DNA of 29,615 bases from a virus (Duplodnaviria > Heunggongvirae > Uroviricota > Caudoviricetes): the IMG/VR virus record IMGVR_UViG_2654587686_000021, positions 1 through 29,615 of that record. The stretch is one strand, 5' to 3'. This document shows, piece by piece, positions 11,397-28,602 of this stretch. Position 1 is the first letter of the stretch. Each line of letters opens with the position of its first letter. Both the position numbers and the translations under genes were made by a program. The notes under the pieces were generated by a model. That model had not been told where the DNA came from. It saw nothing but the letters and a program-made list of their open reading frames with translations, and made no database searches.

Positions 11397-11416
11397 CTTG
11401 TAATGAATTTTATTAA

Positions 11417-11947
11417 TTAGCGAGTCAGAAACAACGAATCTTTATACTTTTGCTGTTGTTCATTTAAATACTTAGCTGTTTCATCGCTGGCAAATGGAAA
11501 TATTACCGTATTTTTAGGCATGGTAATTTCTTTTTTGTCCAGCGTCAGAGTAAACATAGGAACATACTGAGCAGAGTAACGCACCGCAGAAACGAGCTCT
11601 AGTTTAGACTCTTCAATAACACTTAAATTATCCAGGCTAACTTTCTCTTCATCTTTTTTCTTTGACGCATTTAAAGTTTTTATTACTTTATTTAATTTCT
11701 CCTGAAAATCCTCCTTAAAGTTTTCAGGATTGCCGTCGACAACAAGAATCTGTTCACCCTGATTATCTGGAAAAATAATCTTTGCACTTATCAATTTATT
11801 TTCTTTATAAACATCACCAAGTTTTATGGCTCCTCCAGATAACTGAATAATATGTTCATCTTTAAAGGAGATGTTGCCAGAGATTATGAGAGATGAAAAA
11901 ATAGCCGCTACTCCAAGAATTACACTTGCTGTGATATAGCCTTTCAT
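11417..11947 (-). CDS. Hypothetical exported or membrane-anchored protein (AT-rich moron)
   Basis: 176 aa with N-terminal hydrophobic signal/anchor MKGYITASVILGVAAIFSSLIISG and a Lys/Glu/Asp-rich body. Markedly AT-rich, with its own downstream terminator. Inserted between tape measure and Mu N-like genes. Confidence 0.6.
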   Translation of the reverse strand: MKGYITASVILGVAAIFSSLIISGNISFKDEHIIQLSGGAIKLGDVYKENKLISAKIIFPDNQGEQILVVDGNPENFKEDFQEKLNKVIKTLNASKKKDEEKVSLDNLSVIEESKLELVSAVRYSAQYVPMFTLTLDKKEITMPKNTVIFPFASDETAKYLNEQQQKYKDSLFLTR

Positions 11948-12038
11948 TTTTCGCCTATTAACATTTTTCTAAATGTGCATTAATTCTATCACTCTATTTA
12001 TGACTTACAACCAGCAATACATGTGAGGGGAATCCTGG

Positions 12039-13871
12039 CTACCAAAATCGGGTATAGCCAACATCGTGATTTATATCAATGCCACTGGAGCGTGTTTCCG
12101 TAACCCGCATACCTGATGGCATATTTATAAATGATACCTTGATCTCACCATCAACTTTTGGCGCGGTAGCTTTATTAATCATGAAGGGATTCGAGCCTGT
12201 GGCATCGGAGGCGTTGTTTGCCTGAGCCGGATCCACCGCCGGATAAGGAGTGTATCCCCGTGCCGGTATTCCCGTCCCATAAGCATCATAAGCACCCGCG
12301 CCCCACTGCGCAGAGTTAATGGCATCGACCGTGTCACCGGAACTGTCGGTAAACCACTCAATAATTGGCTTCAGCTTGTCCCACATATCCTGAAACCACT
12401 TAACAACCGGCCCCCAGTTATTGATCACCATCCCCAGCGGCGACCAGGCAAAAACTTTCTTAAGGAGTTCCCAGCCAGCCTCAAAATAAGGACCAATGGT
12501 TTCCCAGAGTTTCTTAAAATAAGGTCCGACAACATCCCAGTTAGTGATAATTAATCCCGCAGCCAGGGCTATCGCCGTCGCAATCATGCCAATCGGCGTC
12601 ATCGACATGATCCTGCTGACAATACTGATGGCACCGCCAACGCCCATCAATCCCAGTTTCAGAATCGCAAGACCGGCAGCAAGCCCGACGACGCCGCGAA
12701 TAACCCGGGGATTTTCATCCGCAAACTTCGTGAATTTTTCCCCCAACTCCCCCAGCCATTGCGTGATATTTTTAGCGTCACCAGAAAATGCGCCGCCAAT
12801 AGCAGCAAGACCGTTAGTTGCGGTCCCCGTCATTGCCTCCCACAGGTTGGACAGCGTACCAAGCTGAGCCTGAACACGTTTATTCAGGCTGGCCTGTTTA
12901 TTCATCTTCTGCTGGATCTGATCGTAGCCATCCTTTCCTTTATCGATCAGGGCATTGACCACCTGAAGGGTTTCGGCATCATCACCAAATATTGCCTTAA
13001 GTACGCCTGTTCGCTTAACGTCGGTCAGTTTTCGCAACTTTGCCAGTTGCCTGAACATGTTATCAAGACCGCCAAAACTTCCTTTGCCGTCAGTAAAATC
13101 GAGCTGTACCCCGAGTTTCTGGCGGGCCATGACTTTATTGACGTCCCTGATTTTCTTAACACTTAATCCGGACTGGATAACTTTTCGCAGGGCATTACCT
13201 GCCGACTCCCCGTTCATCCCCATCTGATCCATCATGACGCTGATGGGGGCAAGGCTCTGTGCAGCCTGAAGACCGTCCTTGTTCACCATCTTCAGAACAG
13301 AACTGGTTTTAGTGAAGAAGGACAACATGTTGGTATCGTCAACGCCCAGATAAAACGCCTTCTGGATAGTGTCGAACAGCCCCATCATGTCTTCTGACGC
13401 CGTTCCGGTAGCATCCTGCATCTTTGCAGCAAACTCAGCAGCCGCTTCCGGTGTTTTTTTCAGTTGTACCGCAAGATAAGCTGTCGCTTTACCCACACCA
13501 CCCAGAATGTTTTCTGCCGGGATCCCCTGCCGCACCAGCATCTGCATCATGTTCTGGAAATCAGCCGTTGTACCGGGTAGCTGGTTACCCAGGCCAATAG
13601 CCAGTTTATTGATGTCCTGAAAGCTCTTTCCAACCTCGCCGTTCGCATCCATCATGGCGACTTTCAGCCCGGTAGCGGCGTTTTCCTGATCGGCATAAGA
13701 TTTCAGGGAAAGCGTCAGCCCCGCTGCCAGTCCTCCACCAAGCGCCAGCCCACCCTGTGACGCTTCTTCCGCCTGGCGTTTAAATCCCCGGATTTTCTTT
13801 TGCATTTTCGACAGCGCGGGAGAAAGCCTGTCGACACCGGTGATCAACGCCTTAAGCTCAAATTCAGCCAT
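12039..13871 (-). CDS. Tail tape measure protein
   Basis: 610 aa with Ala/Gly-rich helical N-terminal half and hydrophobic Gly-rich central segments, directly downstream of the frameshifted chaperone. Confidence 0.85.
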   Translation of the reverse strand: MAEFELKALITGVDRLSPALSKMQKKIRGFKRQAEEASQGGLALGGGLAAGLTLSLKSYADQENAATGLKVAMMDANGEVGKSFQDINKLAIGLGNQLPGTTADFQNMMQMLVRQGIPAENILGGVGKATAYLAVQLKKTPEAAAEFAAKMQDATGTASEDMMGLFDTIQKAFYLGVDDTNMLSFFTKTSSVLKMVNKDGLQAAQSLAPISVMMDQMGMNGESAGNALRKVIQSGLSVKKIRDVNKVMARQKLGVQLDFTDGKGSFGGLDNMFRQLAKLRKLTDVKRTGVLKAIFGDDAETLQVVNALIDKGKDGYDQIQQKMNKQASLNKRVQAQLGTLSNLWEAMTGTATNGLAAIGGAFSGDAKNITQWLGELGEKFTKFADENPRVIRGVVGLAAGLAILKLGLMGVGGAISIVSRIMSMTPIGMIATAIALAAGLIITNWDVVGPYFKKLWETIGPYFEAGWELLKKVFAWSPLGMVINNWGPVVKWFQDMWDKLKPIIEWFTDSSGDTVDAINSAQWGAGAYDAYGTGIPARGYTPYPAVDPAQANNASDATGSNPFMINKATAPKVDGEIKVSFINMPSGMRVTETRSSGIDINHDVGYTRFW

Positions 13872-23949: not shown

Positions 23950-24300
23950 TCACTTTAACCGTTCACGGGCCGTCTTCGCCTTATGACACGGCCAACACAG
24001 ACTCTGCAGATTACAGTCGGCATCAGTGCCGCCATGCGCTTTAGGGATGATGTGGTCAACGGTTTTCGCCTCACGCACCACACCGGCACGCAGACATAAC
24101 TGACATAAACCTTTGTCACGCTTCAGCACACGCGCGCGGATAGCGTCCCACTTCGAACCATAACCGCGCTGATGACGGGACTGACCTGGCTTGTATTGCT
24201 TCCAGCCTTCGCTTTTGTGGCTTTCGCAGTAGCCTGACGGGTCTGTGGTTGTAGAGCGGCAGCCGCGAACACGGCAGGCTTTTGGGGTTCGTGGTGGCAT
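23950..24300 (-). CDS. HNH endonuclease (terminase-associated)
   Basis: CxxC ... HIIPKAHGGTD ... N ... CWPCH motif; immediately upstream of terminase small subunit. Confidence 0.85.
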   Translation of the reverse strand: MPPRTPKACRVRGCRSTTTDPSGYCESHKSEGWKQYKPGQSRHQRGYGSKWDAIRARVLKRDKGLCQLCLRAGVVREAKTVDHIIPKAHGGTDADCNLQSLCWPCHKAKTARERLK

Positions 24301-24311
24301 TGGTAAGCTCC

Positions 24312-24344
24312 AATAAAAAAGCCACCATCGATTGCTAGTGGCTT
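24312..24344 (-). terminator. Intrinsic terminator after moron gene (stem aagccac/gtggctt, then T-tract on minus strand)
   Basis: Minus strand reads aagccac tagcaatcgatg gtggctt followed by ttttttatt. Confidence 0.55.
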
Positions 24345-24379
24345 AGCATCTACTAATGTTACTAATGTGAAGAGTAGGT

Positions 24380-25138
24380 TTATTTTTTCTTCTTATTTAA
24401 CTTATCTAAATTGACGGGATCTTTCCCTGTGGCAGCTAAACACCAAAAAGAATAACTCTTTTGCATGACATAGGTTCTAATTCTCTCTAATGTTTCATTA
24501 TATTTTTTCTCAACAACCTGTATCGCATGTTCAAATAAATTAATCATATCAACATGCTCGTCCTCGACACCAATCATGCTCAGTTGTTTTCTATCTGTCA
24601 CTGCTTGATAAAATGTTTTCCCATTTTTCCTTATTAGTAACAATGAAGTTTCTGCTGACTCATAGTCTTGGTTGCCGCTATGTGCTGCAAAATTATGCCT
24701 GTAGTTAATAATACAGTCATGCAACCCAAAATATTCAGAATCAAGCCAATCACGCTCCATCTTTAACTTTCTCCCTTTAGCTTCAGAGAAAGCTTTACCA
24801 TAAAACGTTAGGCTTGCCACAAATAACGCTCTAATTTCACTTGATAAATCTAGATCAAGTATATTCCCGTATAACTTGCCATCTGTCCTTAATTCGTTTC
24901 TCCCTGCCAGTTCATTAGCTATTTGGTACCACTCTTTAGCACTTTTTAAGTCCCTATGAATTAGGGACAGTGAAGATGCTCTATCGGCAATACGCCCACT
25001 CAATTTTATGCGATCTACAATTTCATTATTGAATGTATAAACCGCTTTAAATTCCCCCGTTTCGGAATCAATATAATATTCAACATCTAACCCTTCATAT
25101 GATTCACACCCGGGACCTTCTAATTTTTTTCTTTTCAT
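24380..25138 (-). CDS. Hypothetical protein (AT-rich moron between lysis cassette and packaging genes)
   Basis: 252 aa from the first ATG (ORF-track start 25162 is a TTG). No motif I recognise; AT-rich with Lys-rich termini; own terminator downstream. Confidence 0.6.
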   Translation of the reverse strand: MKRKKLEGPGCESYEGLDVEYYIDSETGEFKAVYTFNNEIVDRIKLSGRIADRASSLSLIHRDLKSAKEWYQIANELAGRNELRTDGKLYGNILDLDLSSEIRALFVASLTFYGKAFSEAKGRKLKMERDWLDSEYFGLHDCIINYRHNFAAHSGNQDYESAETSLLLIRKNGKTFYQAVTDRKQLSMIGVEDEHVDMINLFEHAIQVVEKKYNETLERIRTYVMQKSYSFWCLAATGKDPVNLDKLNKKKK

Positions 25139-25219
25139 ATAGAATATCCATATACGTTTCAATTCTCAGTCAGCATAGTAGAAAAAAAAGATGTCCAGAT
25201 CCATACATCGAAAGCAATT

Positions 25220-25684
25220 TTATTTTTCACACTGACTAGAGATATAGTCCTGCAATGCTCTTATCTGTTTATAACTGATTTCAATTCTCTCTCTGAGGGT
25301 GAAATAATCCCGTTGAGCGGTGTCAGTAAGTCGGGGGGCGGTAGCATCATCCAGGCTGGTGGTAATGGTCGTTGATTGCACTCTCGGGCAACTAGCGGCG
25401 AGGAACAGCCGCTTAGTGCCAACAGCAACATCACGCTGAAGCTGTTCAATAGTTGCTTTAGCATTTGCAAGTTCTCCGGTGTATTTCGCATCGAGCGCAG
25501 AAACATCACGCTGGCGCTGCTGCATCTCAGTAATGGTGGCGTTCGCCTGGCTGAGTTTTTCCTTCGCTTTATCGCGCTGTTCTTTGTAGGCGATGGCGTT
25601 ATCACGATAATGATTAACAGCCCATGATAGGCAGACGATGGTGCAGATAACCAGAGAGGACAGAATCGCAGTTACTCTACTCAT
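25220..25684 (-). CDS. rz: Rz-like i-spanin
   Basis: [31 protein letters not shown]...[10 protein letters not shown] closely matches lambda Rz. Start set at the MSRVT methionine (25684) rather than ORF-track 25732. Confidence 0.85.
25261..25464 (-). CDS. rz1: Rz1-like o-spanin lipoprotein embedded in the +1 frame of Rz
   Basis: Internal frame encodes [22 protein letters not shown]...[24 protein letters not shown], with a lipobox (LSGC) and the proline-rich Rz1 signature. Exact start (25464 or 25431) uncertain. Confidence 0.7.
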
Positions 25685-26159
25685 ATAGCTGAATTTCTCT
25701 GACCGTTCCGCCCGATTCTTTGAATTTTTCAATCAGGCTGTCAACCTTATGTTCGAACTGACCATAACCAGCGCCCGGCAATGACGCCCAGATATTGCTG
25801 CAACGATCAATAGCCTGACGGATATCGCCGCGATCAATCATCGGTAAAGCACCACGCTCTTTAATCTGCTGCAATGCCACAGCATCCTGGCTTTTTGGAG
25901 AGAAGTCTTTCAGCCCAAGCTGCTTACGGTAAGCATCCCACCAGCGTGAAAGAAGCTGATAACGTCCTGCGGCTGTTGATTTAAGTTTCGGGTTTAGCGT
26001 GACAAGTTTGCGAGGGTGATCGGAGTAATCAGTGAACAGTTCACCTCCGACAATAACGTCATAACCGTGGTTACGTGTCGGTTGTCGCCCGTTATCCGTT
26101 CCTTCTGACCATGCCACCATATCGAGGAAAGCTTTACGCTGGGAATTTAGTACCTGCAT
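25677..26159 (-). CDS. R: Endolysin, lambda R-type lytic transglycosylase
   Basis: [64 protein letters not shown] is near-identical to lambda R as I recall it. Confidence 0.9.
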
Positions 26160-26641: not shown

Positions 26642-26663
26642 AAACCCGCTCGACGGCGGGTTT
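26642..26663 (-). terminator. Hairpin plus U-rich tract in the leader upstream of the holin (candidate tR'-like late terminator)
   Basis: aaacccgc / gcgggttt stem with 6-nt loop; the minus strand continues ttttgtcgtttctg. Confidence 0.35.
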
Positions 26664-26785: not shown

Positions 26786-27727
26786 ATGAGTACAGAAAAT
26801 AAGAATAAAACCAGGCGAGTGAGAGTTGGTTTTTTCACTGGTAATGGAAGCAAAAAAGATGGCACATCTGCTGCAAAACTAGCCTTTGAGCAAATGACCA
26901 CAGCAGATACTGTAACTTTTCCAATAACTTACACAACAGACACCCCAAGTCGAGGGTTAAAGTTAGTTATTCTTCAAAAAGATACCACACTGCAATGTTA
27001 CTTTGGTTACGTATCGTGGAGAAGGGAATGCCTACTACCGTTCATCGAGGATGCTACAGGTAGTGAGAGAACAATTCCTTTAAATGATAAAGATTCTGTA
27101 GTTGAAAGAACATATTTTATCTATTACTACGAAACGGACTTATTAGCTATGACCCTCAACCATATAGGGCCCAAAGTAAATGATCTGGCATTCATTTTGT
27201 ATAACAAAACTGATTTAAAAAGCGTCACTTTTGAAGCCATTTGGAAACAAGAGAGCATGAAGGAACTGCTTGAGGACGGAAATATCCTACGTAGTTTCGA
27301 TCTTATAGTTGCTGCTCCAAGAAACTTTAACAAAGCTAATTATAAGATTAAAAACCCTTTAGCTAATGAAATTATTGACATGGTTGTTGGTATGGGCGGG
27401 TCGCATCTAAGATTAAATATGCGAGGTCGGATTCGCCCGAAAAAACAAGGGTTTAACTATCTAAAAACTTCTGTCACCGATGCTATTAAGGAACTACTTG
27501 AACTTTTTCCAAAAGGTTCTGGAGGTCTAAAAATTAAAAAAATTGATGTAACAGAGCCATCCAATAGAACGCCCAAAAGTCTACTTGACCAAGTATTGGT
27601 CAGTACAAAGACAATCATTGTCAAAAGCGGTTATCCATCCGATTCTGATATCAGAACGGCGATGATATCTGCTAAAATTGATAACGCGAACTATCTTGCA
27701 CAGTATGAGCTCGCTAGCAGAGACTAA
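26786..27727 (+). CDS. Hypothetical soluble protein, first gene of AT-rich two-gene cassette (candidate sensor of an abortive-infection/defence module)
   Basis: 313 aa with no recognisable catalytic motif; AT-rich codon usage unlike flanking phage genes; followed 21 nt later by a membrane-protein gene with a strong ribosome-binding site. Confidence 0.6.
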   Translation: MSTENKNKTRRVRVGFFTGNGSKKDGTSAAKLAFEQMTTADTVTFPITYTTDTPSRGLKLVILQKDTTLQCYFGYVSWRRECLLPFIEDATGSERTIPLNDKDSVVERTYFIYYYETDLLAMTLNHIGPKVNDLAFILYNKTDLKSVTFEAIWKQESMKELLEDGNILRSFDLIVAAPRNFNKANYKIKNPLANEIIDMVVGMGGSHLRLNMRGRIRPKKQGFNYLKTSVTDAIKELLELFPKGSGGLKIKKIDVTEPSNRTPKSLLDQVLVSTKTIIVKSGYPSDSDIRTAMISAKIDNANYLAQYELASRD

Positions 27728-27748
27728 TAACCAAGCATGGAGGACACA

Positions 27749-28198
27749 ATGAGAGAATTAGCCACTTTTCTCTGGAAATGCGTCCTCTGGATTCTGTTGA
27801 CCTATGCAGCGACAAAACTGTTTAAACCGATGAAGCATGCTGACGTACTCACAACAGCGGGGGTGCTCTCGACTATATCAGGCATCCTGTTTGGTTTTGT
27901 TCTGGCTGCAATATCTATATTTAGTAGTGCAAACAGCGATAAGGAAGGAGCAATTAATGCCCTTAAGCAAAACAACGTGTTACCAACTCTGGTAAATAGA
28001 TTACTTTCAACAGGGTTAACTCTCATCGTCGCATGTATATTTCCATTGATAGCGATGTTTCTACCTGATGATGTTATTGTTGCGGGCAAACCTATTGATT
28101 TCCTGTTCATACTGTTAGGCTTATCCTCCCTTATAATTTCGCTATATACCTTCGGAAGGTGTTGGTTAGTGTTACGAAAAATCTTCCCCCACTTGTGA
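27749..28198 (+). CDS. Small polytopic membrane protein (four predicted TM helices), second gene of the cassette
   Basis: GGAGGA ribosome-binding site 4-5 nt upstream of ATG 27749 (ORF-track start 27737 is 12 nt further up). Hydrophobic segments FLWKCVLWILLTYAATKLF, VLTTAGVLSTISGILFGFVLAAISIFSS, LLSTGLTLIVACIFPLIAMFL, IDFLFILLGLSSLIISLYTF. Confidence 0.65.
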   Translation: MRELATFLWKCVLWILLTYAATKLFKPMKHADVLTTAGVLSTISGILFGFVLAAISIFSSANSDKEGAINALKQNNVLPTLVNRLLSTGLTLIVACIFPLIAMFLPDDVIVAGKPIDFLFILLGLSSLIISLYTFGRCWLVLRKIFPHL

Positions 28199-28233: not shown

Positions 28234-28602
28234 CTAAGCGTCCATTTCAAGGTTAAAATCCAACATTGAAAGGCAACCATCAATAAATCCTTCGGCTAGT
28301 TGTATTTCTATGCGTACCAATTTTTCATCCTTTCCACGCACCTTTGCAATCTTACGCTTGGATATTCTGTATAAATAATGTGCCACAAGCAGCGAGTGCT
28401 CATCTGGCTTTTTTTGCTTTAGACGAGCAAGACAACCTTCAATAATTAATGCATCACTATCTGAACAAGCCTGACGTGTTTTGCTTGTGTAGGGAAGAAG
28501 CCCCTTAAACCCAGCAGCTATAGGCGAATAGTCTACTCCAGAACTATCACTCGCCGCCCATGCTCCCCAACGCTCCAGAACCATCTGAATATCACGCATC
28601 AA
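28234..28602 (-). CDS. Late-gene antitermination protein Q (QuuD-like)
   Basis: MRDIQMVLERWGAWAA...IAAGFKGLL N-terminus matches prophage Q antiterminators (QuuD-like) as I recall them; lies between the nin region and the lysis genes. Confidence 0.8.
   Translation of the reverse strand: MMRDIQMVLERWGAWAASDSSGVDYSPIAAGFKGLLPYTSKTRQACSDSDALIIEGCLARLKQKKPDEHSLLVAHYLYRISKRKIAKVRGKDEKLVRIEIQLAEGFIDGCLSMLDFNLEMDA

What the first reader, a model, noticed from the sequence alone, without database searches (positions are those of the whole stretch)
24312..25162. Single-gene AT-rich moron between lysis cassette and HNH/terminase, with its own terminator
A 252 to 260-aa protein with no motif I recognise sits downstream of Rz, where lambda carries bor and other lambdoid phages carry accessory genes. 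It is strongly AT-rich, has a weak ribosome-binding site, and is followed on the minus strand by a hairpin-plus-T-tract terminator (24312-24344) 12 nt before the HNH start codon. This promoter/gene/terminator layout is typical of horizontally acquired lysogenic-conversion or phage-exclusion genes. Its position just before the packaging genes means late transcription must read through its terminator.
Basis: partly seen in the sequence, partly recalled or inferred. Interest (0 to 1): 0.6.

Follow-up and report, generated by a model that had tools for sequence, protein, structure and literature searches.

The report
Prophage cargo gene: probable solo HEPN nuclease
Between the lysis genes and the DNA-packaging genes of an E. 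coli prophage sits a rare, AT-rich, horizontally acquired gene. Its product looks like a previously unrecognised branch of the HEPN RNA-cutting enzymes, which bacteria and prophages use to abort infection by rival phages, but its function has not been tested.

Summary
A 252-aa ORF (24380-25138, minus strand) lies between Rz/Rz1 and the HNH/terminase genes. It has 35% GC against 54-58% in the neighbouring late genes, and a hairpin plus T-tract follows it.

Two parts of the interpretation need correcting:
- No promoter was found.
- The terminator is not the gene's own. Sibling prophages with unrelated cargo in this slot carry the same hairpin, with compensating stem changes.

The slot does hold variable cargo: it is empty in SfV and holds different small ORFs in eight relatives. 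This gene is present in only 23 of 5426 complete E. coli genomes.

The protein has no Pfam, PADLOC or NCBIfam hit. It belongs to a large family (876 cluster representatives), mostly in prophages and always without a conserved partner gene.

Evidence for a divergent HEPN domain:
- R147-H-x4-H153 is nearly invariant and sits at the end of helix 3.
- Weak profile matches to two HEPN families cover this motif.

DefensePredictor (Science 2026) already lists this protein cluster as a predicted, untested defence gene.

Verdict: probably a single-gene HEPN-type abortive-infection or defence cargo. It is a new member of a known kind, of moderate interest, and unproven.

The parts
24380..25138 (-). Cargo gene, 252 aa (alternative TTG start at 25162 gives 260 aa). 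Predicted cytoplasmic protein: a four-helix core plus a small beta subdomain.
   Evidence: ORF list. RefSeq annotates 759 nt as WP_001407090.1. Matches phrog_8440 at E=3e-117, with no Pfam, PADLOC or NCBIfam hit. AF2 model has pLDDT 87.8.
24680..24700 (-). Codons for R147-H148-N149-F150-A151-A152-H153, the candidate HEPN Rx5H catalytic motif.
   Evidence: R147 and H153 are invariant in a 63-sequence divergent alignment and at least 90% conserved in 145 sequences. They lie at the end of helix 134-152. Codons were read.
24310..24344 (-). Hairpin (9-bp stem, 8-nt loop) plus T-tract, directly upstream of the HNH ribosome-binding site. It is a boundary element of the slot shared with sibling prophages, not specific to this gene.
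   Evidence: Terminator scan. Folds. Alignments with VTB96816v, EC_J_9 and SfI show compensating stem changes.
25139..25219 (-). 81-nt AT-rich spacer between the Rz stop and the cargo start. No promoter-like site, weak RBS, and a weak 5-bp hairpin followed by T8.
   Evidence: Sequence. Promoter scan found nothing here. GC is 0.32. The spacer is not conserved with siblings.
25220..25684 (-). Rz (i-spanin) with embedded Rz1; upstream flank of the slot. The last gene of the holin-endolysin-spanin cassette (to 26489).
   Evidence: Pfam Phage_lysis E=2e-40. RefSeq 'lysis protein'. This exact Rz allele occurs only in the same 23 genomes as the cargo.
23950..24300 (-). HNH endonuclease gene; downstream flank of the slot, followed by the P27-family small terminase and the large terminase.
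   Evidence: Pfam HNH E=5e-15. Annotation. The flank is present in 882 E. coli genomes.

Best explanation
The gene is horizontally acquired accessory cargo in the lysis-to-packaging junction of an SfV/e14-like myovirus prophage. Its product is a cytoplasmic, stand-alone member of a large uncharacterised family that is most likely a divergent HEPN-fold nuclease.

Inferred mechanism, by analogy with the solo prophage HEPN proteins HepS and Tha:
- The protein is made in a latent, probably dimeric or oligomeric form.
- A component of a superinfecting phage activates it.
- It then cuts RNA (tRNA, rRNA or mRNA) through the R147/H153 site.
- Infection is aborted, which protects the lysogen population and the prophage.

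Status of each step:
- Shown: position, composition, rarity, variable slot, family breadth, lack of a partner gene, conserved R...H motif at the end of helix 3.
- Inferred: HEPN homology (probable), RNase activity, defence role, trigger.
- Unknown: whether it is transcribed in the lysogen, or only as part of the Q-dependent late transcript.
For: Cargo status:
- GC is 0.354 against 0.54-0.585 in the flanking late genes.
- Homologues are AT-poorer than their surroundings in 6 of 7 other contexts.
- The gene is in 23 of 5426 E. coli genomes, the HNH flank in 882.
- The slot is empty or holds other ORFs in 9 relatives.

Family:
- 197 word-indexed homologues.
- 876 50%-cluster representatives at E<=1e-3, nearly all 220-260 aa.
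- Members occur in prophages of Escherichia, Citrobacter, Pseudomonas and Vibrio (a filamentous phage), and in Burkholderia chromosomes.
- No conserved neighbour was found.

HEPN evidence:
- The AF2 model has pLDDT 87.8 and pTM 0.84, with four long helices.
- Only Y113, R123, H140, R147 and H153 are invariant across 63 divergent members.
- R147-H148-x4-H153 fits Rx4-6H with a polar residue after R. It sits at the end of helix 3, exactly where Anantharaman et al. 2013 place the motif (PMC3710099).
- hhalign against the pEK499_p136 HEPN family (PF18736) aligns RHNFAAH with RHSVA-H at P=0.006. None of 300 shuffled controls reached that score.
- HEPN_AbiU2 is the Pfam family most often hit below threshold (6 of 145 members). 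In the one hit inspected, the match covers the motif.

Defence evidence:
- DefensePredictor Table S10 lists cluster WP_001407090.1 as a 'Predicted novel defense gene', mean log-odds 8.2 (PMC13092281).
- One homologue lies next to a TIR_2 protein.
Against: Against the HEPN assignment:
- No significant sequence hit to any HEPN model: Pfam, NCBIfam, PADLOC and PDB profile searches were all negative.
- Foldseek against PDB and BFVD found nothing.
- hhalign probability is only 6%. The narrower alignment A1 gives a different, non-motif alignment.
- The conserved acidic residue (D63, within an E-x3-R-like consensus) lies in helix 1, not helix 2 as described for HEPN.

Against the defence role:
- DeWeirdt et al. 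found no HHblits homology to known defence proteins for this cluster.
- No promoter was detected.
- The enterobacterial subfamily is always co-oriented with late genes. That fits a lytic-cycle role as well as a lysogen-expressed defence.
- There is no experimental evidence of any kind.
Confidence: 0.5

Rival explanations
1. A late lytic-cycle function for the phage itself. The protein is a nuclease or RNA-binding factor made from the Q-antiterminated late transcript together with the lysis and packaging genes. It could shut off host or early-phage RNA, or tune lysis and packaging. It would not be a lysogen-expressed defence.
For: - Same strand as the late operon, with no detectable promoter of its own and a weak RBS.
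- Members at 42-60% identity keep the same position, between lysis genes and the small terminase or HNH, in four different phage backbones.
- In one of these the gene ends 10 nt before HNH, as in an operon.
Against: - Absent from most relatives of this phage, including SfV, which has an empty slot. It is therefore dispensable.
- More distant members sit in non-late slots: next to the integrase in 2H10-type prophages (13 IMG/VR contigs), on the opposite strand in Pseudomonas prophage early regions, in a filamentous phage, and in non-phage chromosomal islands.
- Strong compositional foreignness.
Confidence: 0.15
2. A non-catalytic helical protein that only resembles HEPN. It could be a superinfection-exclusion factor, an anti-defence protein or a regulator, in which the conserved R/H/Y residues bind a ligand or a partner.
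For: - No significant HEPN sequence hit.
- Additional invariant residues Y113, R123 and H140 are not part of the canonical HEPN description.
Against: - The near-invariance of exactly an R-polar-x4-H pair at the end of helix 3 is the defining HEPN signature.
- Independent weak profile matches to two HEPN families both land on this motif.
- An invariant His/Arg/Tyr set is more typical of a catalytic site than of a binding surface (inference).
Confidence: 0.15
3. A selfish toxin or addiction element. It would be a solo HEPN toxin whose antitoxin is unrecognised (a small RNA or a host factor), stabilising the prophage rather than defending against phages.
For: - The best structural matches are HEPN toxins of HEPN/MNT toxin-antitoxin systems.
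- In Pseudomonas prophages two small ORFs (about 63-89 aa) follow the gene on the same strand.
Against: - There is no MNT or other conserved partner in any context examined. In the window only 79 nt separate the stop from HNH.
- Solo HEPN proteins such as HepS are non-toxic until triggered (PMC13043305).
Confidence: 0.1

Closest known systems
HepS (STM14_3211), the solo HEPN abortive-infection protein of the Salmonella Gifsy-1 prophage (Sargen et al., Nature 2026, PMC13043305)
   Same: - Single-gene, partner-less HEPN-type protein carried in an accessory slot of a lambdoid-type enterobacterial prophage.
- Of similar size class (homologues of at most 250 aa).
   Different: [quoted passage not shown] Here the motif is Rx5H (R147-H153), with an N-terminal beta hairpin and a beta hairpin after the motif, and the gene lies in the late operon.
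- The sequence relation could not be tested, because the LT2 Gifsy-1 record has no ORF with R100/H105.
- Trigger and target are unknown here.
Tha-1/Tha-2, tail-activated HEPN defence of Staphylococcus aureus prophages (Rostol et al., Nat Microbiol 2024, PMC11087260)
   Different: - Tha is 301 aa, with the HEPN domain at the C-terminus.
- Tha has a cognate small inhibitor gene (ith). No inhibitor gene is evident here.
- Different host phylum.
pEK499_p136 HEPN family (Pfam PF18736), e.g. the nuclease of the validated two-gene system DS-28/ANEX (DeWeirdt et al. 2026)
   Same: - The best profile-profile alignment joins helix 3 and RH-x3/4-H of both families.
- The extended alignment continues through a beta segment after the motif and a final helix.
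   Different: - The score is weak (P=0.006, probability 6%).
- hmmscan gives no PF18736 hit.
- That family is about 160 aa, has Rx4H, and works with a second protein.
AbiU2 (Pfam PF18734 HEPN_AbiU2), from the lactococcal AbiU abortive-infection system
   Same: It is the Pfam family most often hit below threshold by family members (6 of 145). In the one hit inspected (P0251), the match covers helix 3, the R...H motif and the following hairpin.
   Different: - The best score is 13.8 bits against a gathering cut-off of 26.8.
- The window protein itself gives no hit.
- PADLOC Abi models do not match.
Lambda bor and other cargo of the Rz-to-cos/terminase junction of lambdoid phages
   Same: Same genomic slot, and the same presence/absence pattern among relatives.
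   Different: By established knowledge, Bor is a small lipoprotein on the opposite strand with its own promoter. This protein has no signal sequence, is 252 aa and lies on the late strand.

Membership tests
HEPN superfamily (Anantharaman et al. 2013) | Core of four helices in an up-down bundle | tested here: met
HEPN superfamily (Anantharaman et al. 2013) | Conserved Rx4-6H motif with a polar residue (N/D/H) after R | tested here: met
   R147-H148-N-F-A-A-H153. R147 and H153 are invariant in alignment A2 and at least 90% conserved in A6. The definition comes from PMC3710099.
HEPN superfamily (Anantharaman et al. 2013) | [quoted passage not shown] | tested here: met
   Helix 134-152 ends at A152, and H153 starts the loop. 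This matches the description.
HEPN superfamily (Anantharaman et al. 2013) | Statistically significant sequence or profile similarity to a recognised HEPN family | tested here: inconclusive
   No Pfam, NCBIfam or PDB hit. hhalign against PF18736 gives P=0.006-0.007 with alignments A2 and A6, motif-anchored, and exceeds 300 shuffles. Probability is only 6%, and alignment A1 does not reproduce it. Six of 145 members give sub-threshold AbiU2 hits.
HEPN superfamily (Anantharaman et al. 2013) | Upstream conserved acidic residue (Ex3[KR]) in helix 2 | tested here: inconclusive
   The family consensus is I-E-K-D-L-R, with D63 at least 90% conserved, but it lies in the first long helix.
HEPN superfamily (Anantharaman et al. 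2013) | Metal-independent RNase activity dependent on the R and H residues; dimer with a composite site | not testable with these tools
   Needs biochemistry or a multimer prediction.
HepS family | Sequence homology to STM14_3211, with R100-x4-H105 | tested here: inconclusive
HEPN_AbiU2 (PF18734) | Score above the Pfam gathering threshold (26.8 bits) | tested here: not met
   The window protein gives no hit. The one family-member hit examined in detail (P0251) scores 13.8 bits.
pEK499_p136 HEPN (PF18736) | hmmscan match to the family model | tested here: not met
   No hit in any of 145 members at E<=10. Only weak hhalign similarity.
Known anti-phage defence systems (PADLOC-DB 2.0) | Match to any defence protein model | tested here: not met
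   No hit for the protein. Only two chance-level hits among 63 members. DeWeirdt et al. also report no HHblits defence homologue.
Moron (Hendrix-type: extra gene with its own promoter and terminator, atypical composition, patchy among relatives) | Atypical composition and presence/absence among related phages | tested here: met
Moron (Hendrix-type: extra gene with its own promoter and terminator, atypical composition, patchy among relatives) | Own promoter | tested here: not met
   No sigma-70-like site in the 81-nt upstream spacer. This was a consensus scan only, so weak or non-canonical promoters are not excluded.
Moron (Hendrix-type: extra gene with its own promoter and terminator, atypical composition, patchy among relatives) | Own terminator | tested here: inconclusive
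   A hairpin plus T-tract is present, but it is homologous to that of three prophages with other cargo. It is absent after the homologue in L016.
Bor-like lysogenic-conversion lipoprotein | Signal peptide with lipobox; opposite-strand gene with its own promoter | tested here: not met
   The N-terminus MKRKKLEGPGCESYEG has no hydrophobic stretch, and the gene is on the late strand.

The most novel reading that the evidence does not exclude
The family may be a distinct HEPN-derived enzyme class. It has an Rx5H site augmented by invariant Y113, R123 and H140, and a beta subdomain built from the N-terminal and post-motif hairpins. The enterobacterial branch may be tied functionally to the lysis-packaging junction of the late operon. 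For example, it could be a sensor-effector produced with, or gated by, HNH/terminase or lysis proteins. That would let a prophage distinguish its own late programme from that of a competitor, or perform a late RNA-processing step not known in lambdoid phages.
Probability: 0.12. Interest if true: 0.7.

Novelty: new member of a known kind. Interest (0 to 1): 0.45.

Why it matters
If confirmed, this would add a widespread family (hundreds of sequence clusters in Proteobacteria prophages, absent from Pfam and PADLOC) to the single-protein HEPN abortive-infection systems. Only a few of these, such as HepS and Tha, have known triggers.

Its recurrent placement inside the late operon, just before the packaging genes, raises a testable question. 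How does a prophage avoid being killed by its own RNase when the gene is co-transcribed with lysis and packaging genes?

The analysis also gives a concrete mechanistic hypothesis and catalytic residues (R147, H153) for a gene that DefensePredictor flagged only as a 'predicted novel defense gene'.

Tried and rejected
- Pfam, NCBIfam and PADLOC scans of the protein, and of 48, 63 and 145 family members, gave nothing above threshold.
- PDB sequence and profile searches gave nothing relevant.
- Foldseek against PDB and BFVD gave no match at E<=0.001. The afdb50 library was unavailable.
- I tried to fetch HepS from the Gifsy-1 (LT2) record for a direct comparison. STM2620 is not HepS, and no ORF has R100/H105.
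- hhalign against the validated single-gene system 'HEP3' of DeWeirdt et al. showed no similarity.
- An accession search of the literature gave no main-text hit. The only hit was in Table S10 of DefensePredictor. The family's motif strings are absent from that paper's table of validated proteins.
- The left (Rz-side) junction is not conserved with siblings, so the cassette boundary could not be mapped there.
- A structural or packaging role is rejected: the gene is absent from most relatives and matches no such family.
- A lipoprotein or Bor-like role is rejected: there is no signal sequence.
- The DprA fragment fused to one family member (P0235) was judged a chimeric or truncated gene call.
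- Plasmid carriage is negligible: one record.

Full report
**What is there**

The window is the late and structural half of an SfV/e14-like myovirus prophage of E. coli. It is 100% identical over the tested stretch to strains R12 and EC43. On the minus strand the gene order is:
- Q antiterminator
- an opposite-strand two-gene insert
- holin, endolysin, Rz/Rz1
- the ORF in question
- HNH endonuclease, P27-type small terminase, large terminase, portal

The ORF is open from a TTG at 25162 (260 aa). The ATG at 25138 (252 aa) is the start used by RefSeq (WP_001407090.1) and matches the N-termini of homologues.

GC is 0.354 (GC3 0.308), against 0.54-0.585 for HNH, TerS and TerL. Fewer than 1% of same-sized windows are as AT-rich. 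The ribosome-binding site is weak, as read.

A hairpin with a 9-bp stem and a T-tract lies at 24344-24312, directly before the GGAG and ATG of HNH.

**Corrections to the description**

No sigma-70-like promoter was found in the 81-nt spacer after Rz. The 'promoter/gene/terminator' layout is therefore not demonstrated.

The terminator is not the gene's own:
- Three prophages carry the same element upstream of HNH: E. coli VTB96816v, E. coli EC_J_9 and Shigella phage SfI. The element is TAAGCC-stem-GGCTT-T5-6-ATTGGAG. Their cargo in the slot is unrelated: ORFs of 82, 128 and 124 aa.
- The interior of the stem differs between them while pairing is kept.
- Three further relatives (689R6, SKA5, SfII) have non-homologous hairpins followed by a U-run at that place. 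SfV, whose slot is empty, has none.
- A 60%-identical homologue in another phage ends 10 nt before its HNH gene, with no terminator.

The hairpin is best seen as a boundary element of the slot. By itself it is not statistically remarkable: 2 sites against 3.0 expected, and a fold z-score of about -1.8. Its conservation is what makes it credible.

**Is it variable cargo?**

Yes. The complete 1.1-kb stretch is present in 23 of 5426 complete E. coli genomes, while the HNH flank occurs in 882. The slot between the spanin genes and HNH has these contents:
- SfV: empty
- SfIV: unannotated
- SfI, SfII, 689R6, SKA5 and two E. coli prophages: different small hypothetical genes

The particular Rz allele next to the gene is found only in the same 23 genomes. 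In IMG/VR contigs, holin, endolysin, Rz and the cargo stay 98-100% identical while Q and HNH vary. The cargo therefore seems to travel with this lysis cassette.

**The family**

The protein matches only PHROG 8440 (unknown function). Nothing matches in Pfam, NCBIfam or PADLOC.

Homologues number 197 in the word-indexed search, and 876 cluster representatives in the exhaustive profile search. Nearly all are 220-260 aa single-domain proteins.

The contexts examined:
- Between lysis genes and the small terminase or HNH, co-oriented with late genes. This holds in four different phage backbones at 42-60% identity.
- About 285 nt after the integrase, in 2H10-type lambdoid prophages: 13 IMG/VR contigs at 29% identity.
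- On the opposite strand in early regions of Pseudomonas prophages.
- Among tail genes.
- In a filamentous Vibrio phage.
- In Burkholderia and Paraburkholderia chromosomal islands, once next to a TIR_2 protein.

No partner gene is conserved. In six of seven contexts the gene is much more AT-rich than its surroundings.

**What the protein looks like**

An AlphaFold2 model built on 48 sequences is confident (pLDDT 87.8, pTM 0.84). It shows four long helices (49-79, 96-115, 134-152, 198-224), an N-terminal beta hairpin, and a second hairpin (160-185) between helices 3 and 4.

Structure comparisons:
- Five more HEPN chains are in the top 50: 5yep_B, 8xdj_A, 1ylm_B, 1jog_A and 3jrt_A.
- Unrelated helical bundles score almost as high.
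- Foldseek finds nothing.

Conserved residues:
- In a 63-sequence alignment at 19-40% identity, the only invariant residues are Y113, R123, H140, R147 and H153.
- They remain at least 90% conserved in 145 sequences.
- R147-H148-N-F-A-A-H153 fits the HEPN signature Rx4-6H with a polar residue after R.
[quoted passage not shown] This is the position described for HEPN domains (PMC3710099).

Profile evidence is weak but points the same way:
- I built an alignment of the pEK499_p136 HEPN family (PF18736) from the nuclease of a validated system in DeWeirdt et al..
- hhalign places RHNFAAH on RHSVA-H at P about 0.006.
- None of 150 column-shuffled or 150 block-shuffled controls reached that score.
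- The result is reproduced with the 145-sequence alignment but not with the narrower 48-sequence one.
- Among all 24,736 Pfam families, HEPN_AbiU2 is the one most often hit below threshold by family members (6 of 145). In the member inspected, the match spans helix 3, the motif and the hairpin.

I judge HEPN homology probable (about 0.65), not proven.

**Function and mechanism**

Solo HEPN proteins carried by prophages are now documented abortive-infection systems:
- HepS of Gifsy-1 is a latent tetramer. Siphovirus tail-tip proteins activate it, and it then cuts tRNA anticodon loops (PMC13043305).
- Tha of staphylococcal prophages is activated by minor tail proteins (PMC11087260).

Both were first recognised by the same kind of evidence used here.

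Independently, DefensePredictor lists this protein cluster (representative WP_001407090.1) among 1,041 uncharacterised E. coli clusters as a 'Predicted novel defense gene'. Its mean log-odds is 8.2, with no HHblits homology to known defence proteins. It is not among the 42 validated systems (PMC13092281).

The most likely explanation is a latent, self-contained HEPN-type RNase. It protects the lysogen by aborting infection when a foreign phage component activates it.

What is shown:
- cargo status
- family breadth
- lack of a partner gene
- the conserved motif and its placement

What is inferred:
- homology to HEPN
- RNase chemistry
- the defence role
- the trigger

The main rival is a function in the phage's own late programme. 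The gene is co-oriented with the late operon, lacks a detectable promoter, and keeps the lysis-packaging position across diverged members. Its patchy distribution, and the non-late positions of more distant relatives, argue against this.

**Novelty and score**

The gene is not in any curated family and has not been studied experimentally. It had already been flagged computationally as a defence candidate. On my reading it is another branch of a well-known effector superfamily, in a well-known accessory slot.

That makes it a new member of a known kind. It offers a useful, testable hypothesis (R147/H153) and an interesting question about self-immunity in the late operon. Interest 0.45.

Noticed in passing
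window 26786-28198 (+ strand): A second AT-rich cargo lies on the strand opposite to the late genes, between Q (28234-28602) and the holin. It has a 313-aa protein (phrog_7651, GC 0.378) followed 9 nt later by a 153-aa protein with about four hydrophobic segments (phrog_8552, GC 0.416). Neither has a significant Pfam, PADLOC or NCBIfam hit. The sibling prophage in VTB96816v carries a different plus-strand pair at the same place. This may be another defence or exclusion module.
   Followed up: partly
window 24310-24344 (-); L004 3602-3661; L005 3602-3661; L006 427-486: The hairpin plus U-run upstream of HNH is homologous in four prophages with unrelated cargo. The stem interior differs while pairing is kept (e.g. 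CACTA/TGGTG against CATCGA/TCGATG). SfV, whose slot is empty, lacks it. It behaves as a conserved boundary of the cargo slot, and possibly as a recombination joint.
   Followed up: partly
window 26642-26663 (-): A strong terminator-like hairpin (AAACCCGC...GCGGGTTT plus a T-rich tail) lies just upstream of the holin gene, at the position where SfV has an annotated terminator. It is probably the tR' of the late promoter region. If so, the opposite-strand cargo lies between Q and pR'.
   Followed up: no
L012/L037, L016, L038 and the window: Family members at only 42-60% identity occupy the same position in four different phage backbones. They sit after the lysis genes, before the small terminase or HNH, and are co-oriented with the late genes. 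The backbones have different holins, endolysins and terminases. Such positional persistence across this divergence is unusual for a freely moving moron.
   Followed up: partly
L049-L056, L059-L061, L063, L067 (IMG/VR); L002: A distant branch (27-42% identity over the matched segments) sits about 285 nt downstream of the integrase gene in 13 lambda-like (2H10-type) prophage contigs. This is the other classical accessory slot.
   Followed up: partly
L029 4001-5368: In Paraburkholderia tropica the homologue (39% identity) is followed on the same strand by a TIR_2-domain protein. This suggests a defence-island setting.
   Followed up: no
window about 11400-12160: This is the lowest-GC stretch of the whole window (0.33-0.345). 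By the RefSeq annotation of strain R12 it falls in the 5' part of the 'DNA circularization protein' gene, next to the tape-measure gene. It points to a mosaic joint inside the tail module.
   Followed up: no
window 25715-25744 (-): This is the best promoter-like site in the region (TTGACA-18-AAGAAT, 10 of 12). It lies inside the 3' end of the endolysin gene, upstream of Rz and the cargo. The number of such sites in the region is at chance level, so its significance is unknown.
   Followed up: no
L007-L011 6766-7330: In Pseudomonas prophages the homologue is followed on the same strand by two small ORFs (about 81 aa and 63-89 aa) with no Pfam hit. They are absent from the E. coli context. They could be regulators or inhibitors, or unrelated morons.
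   Followed up: no
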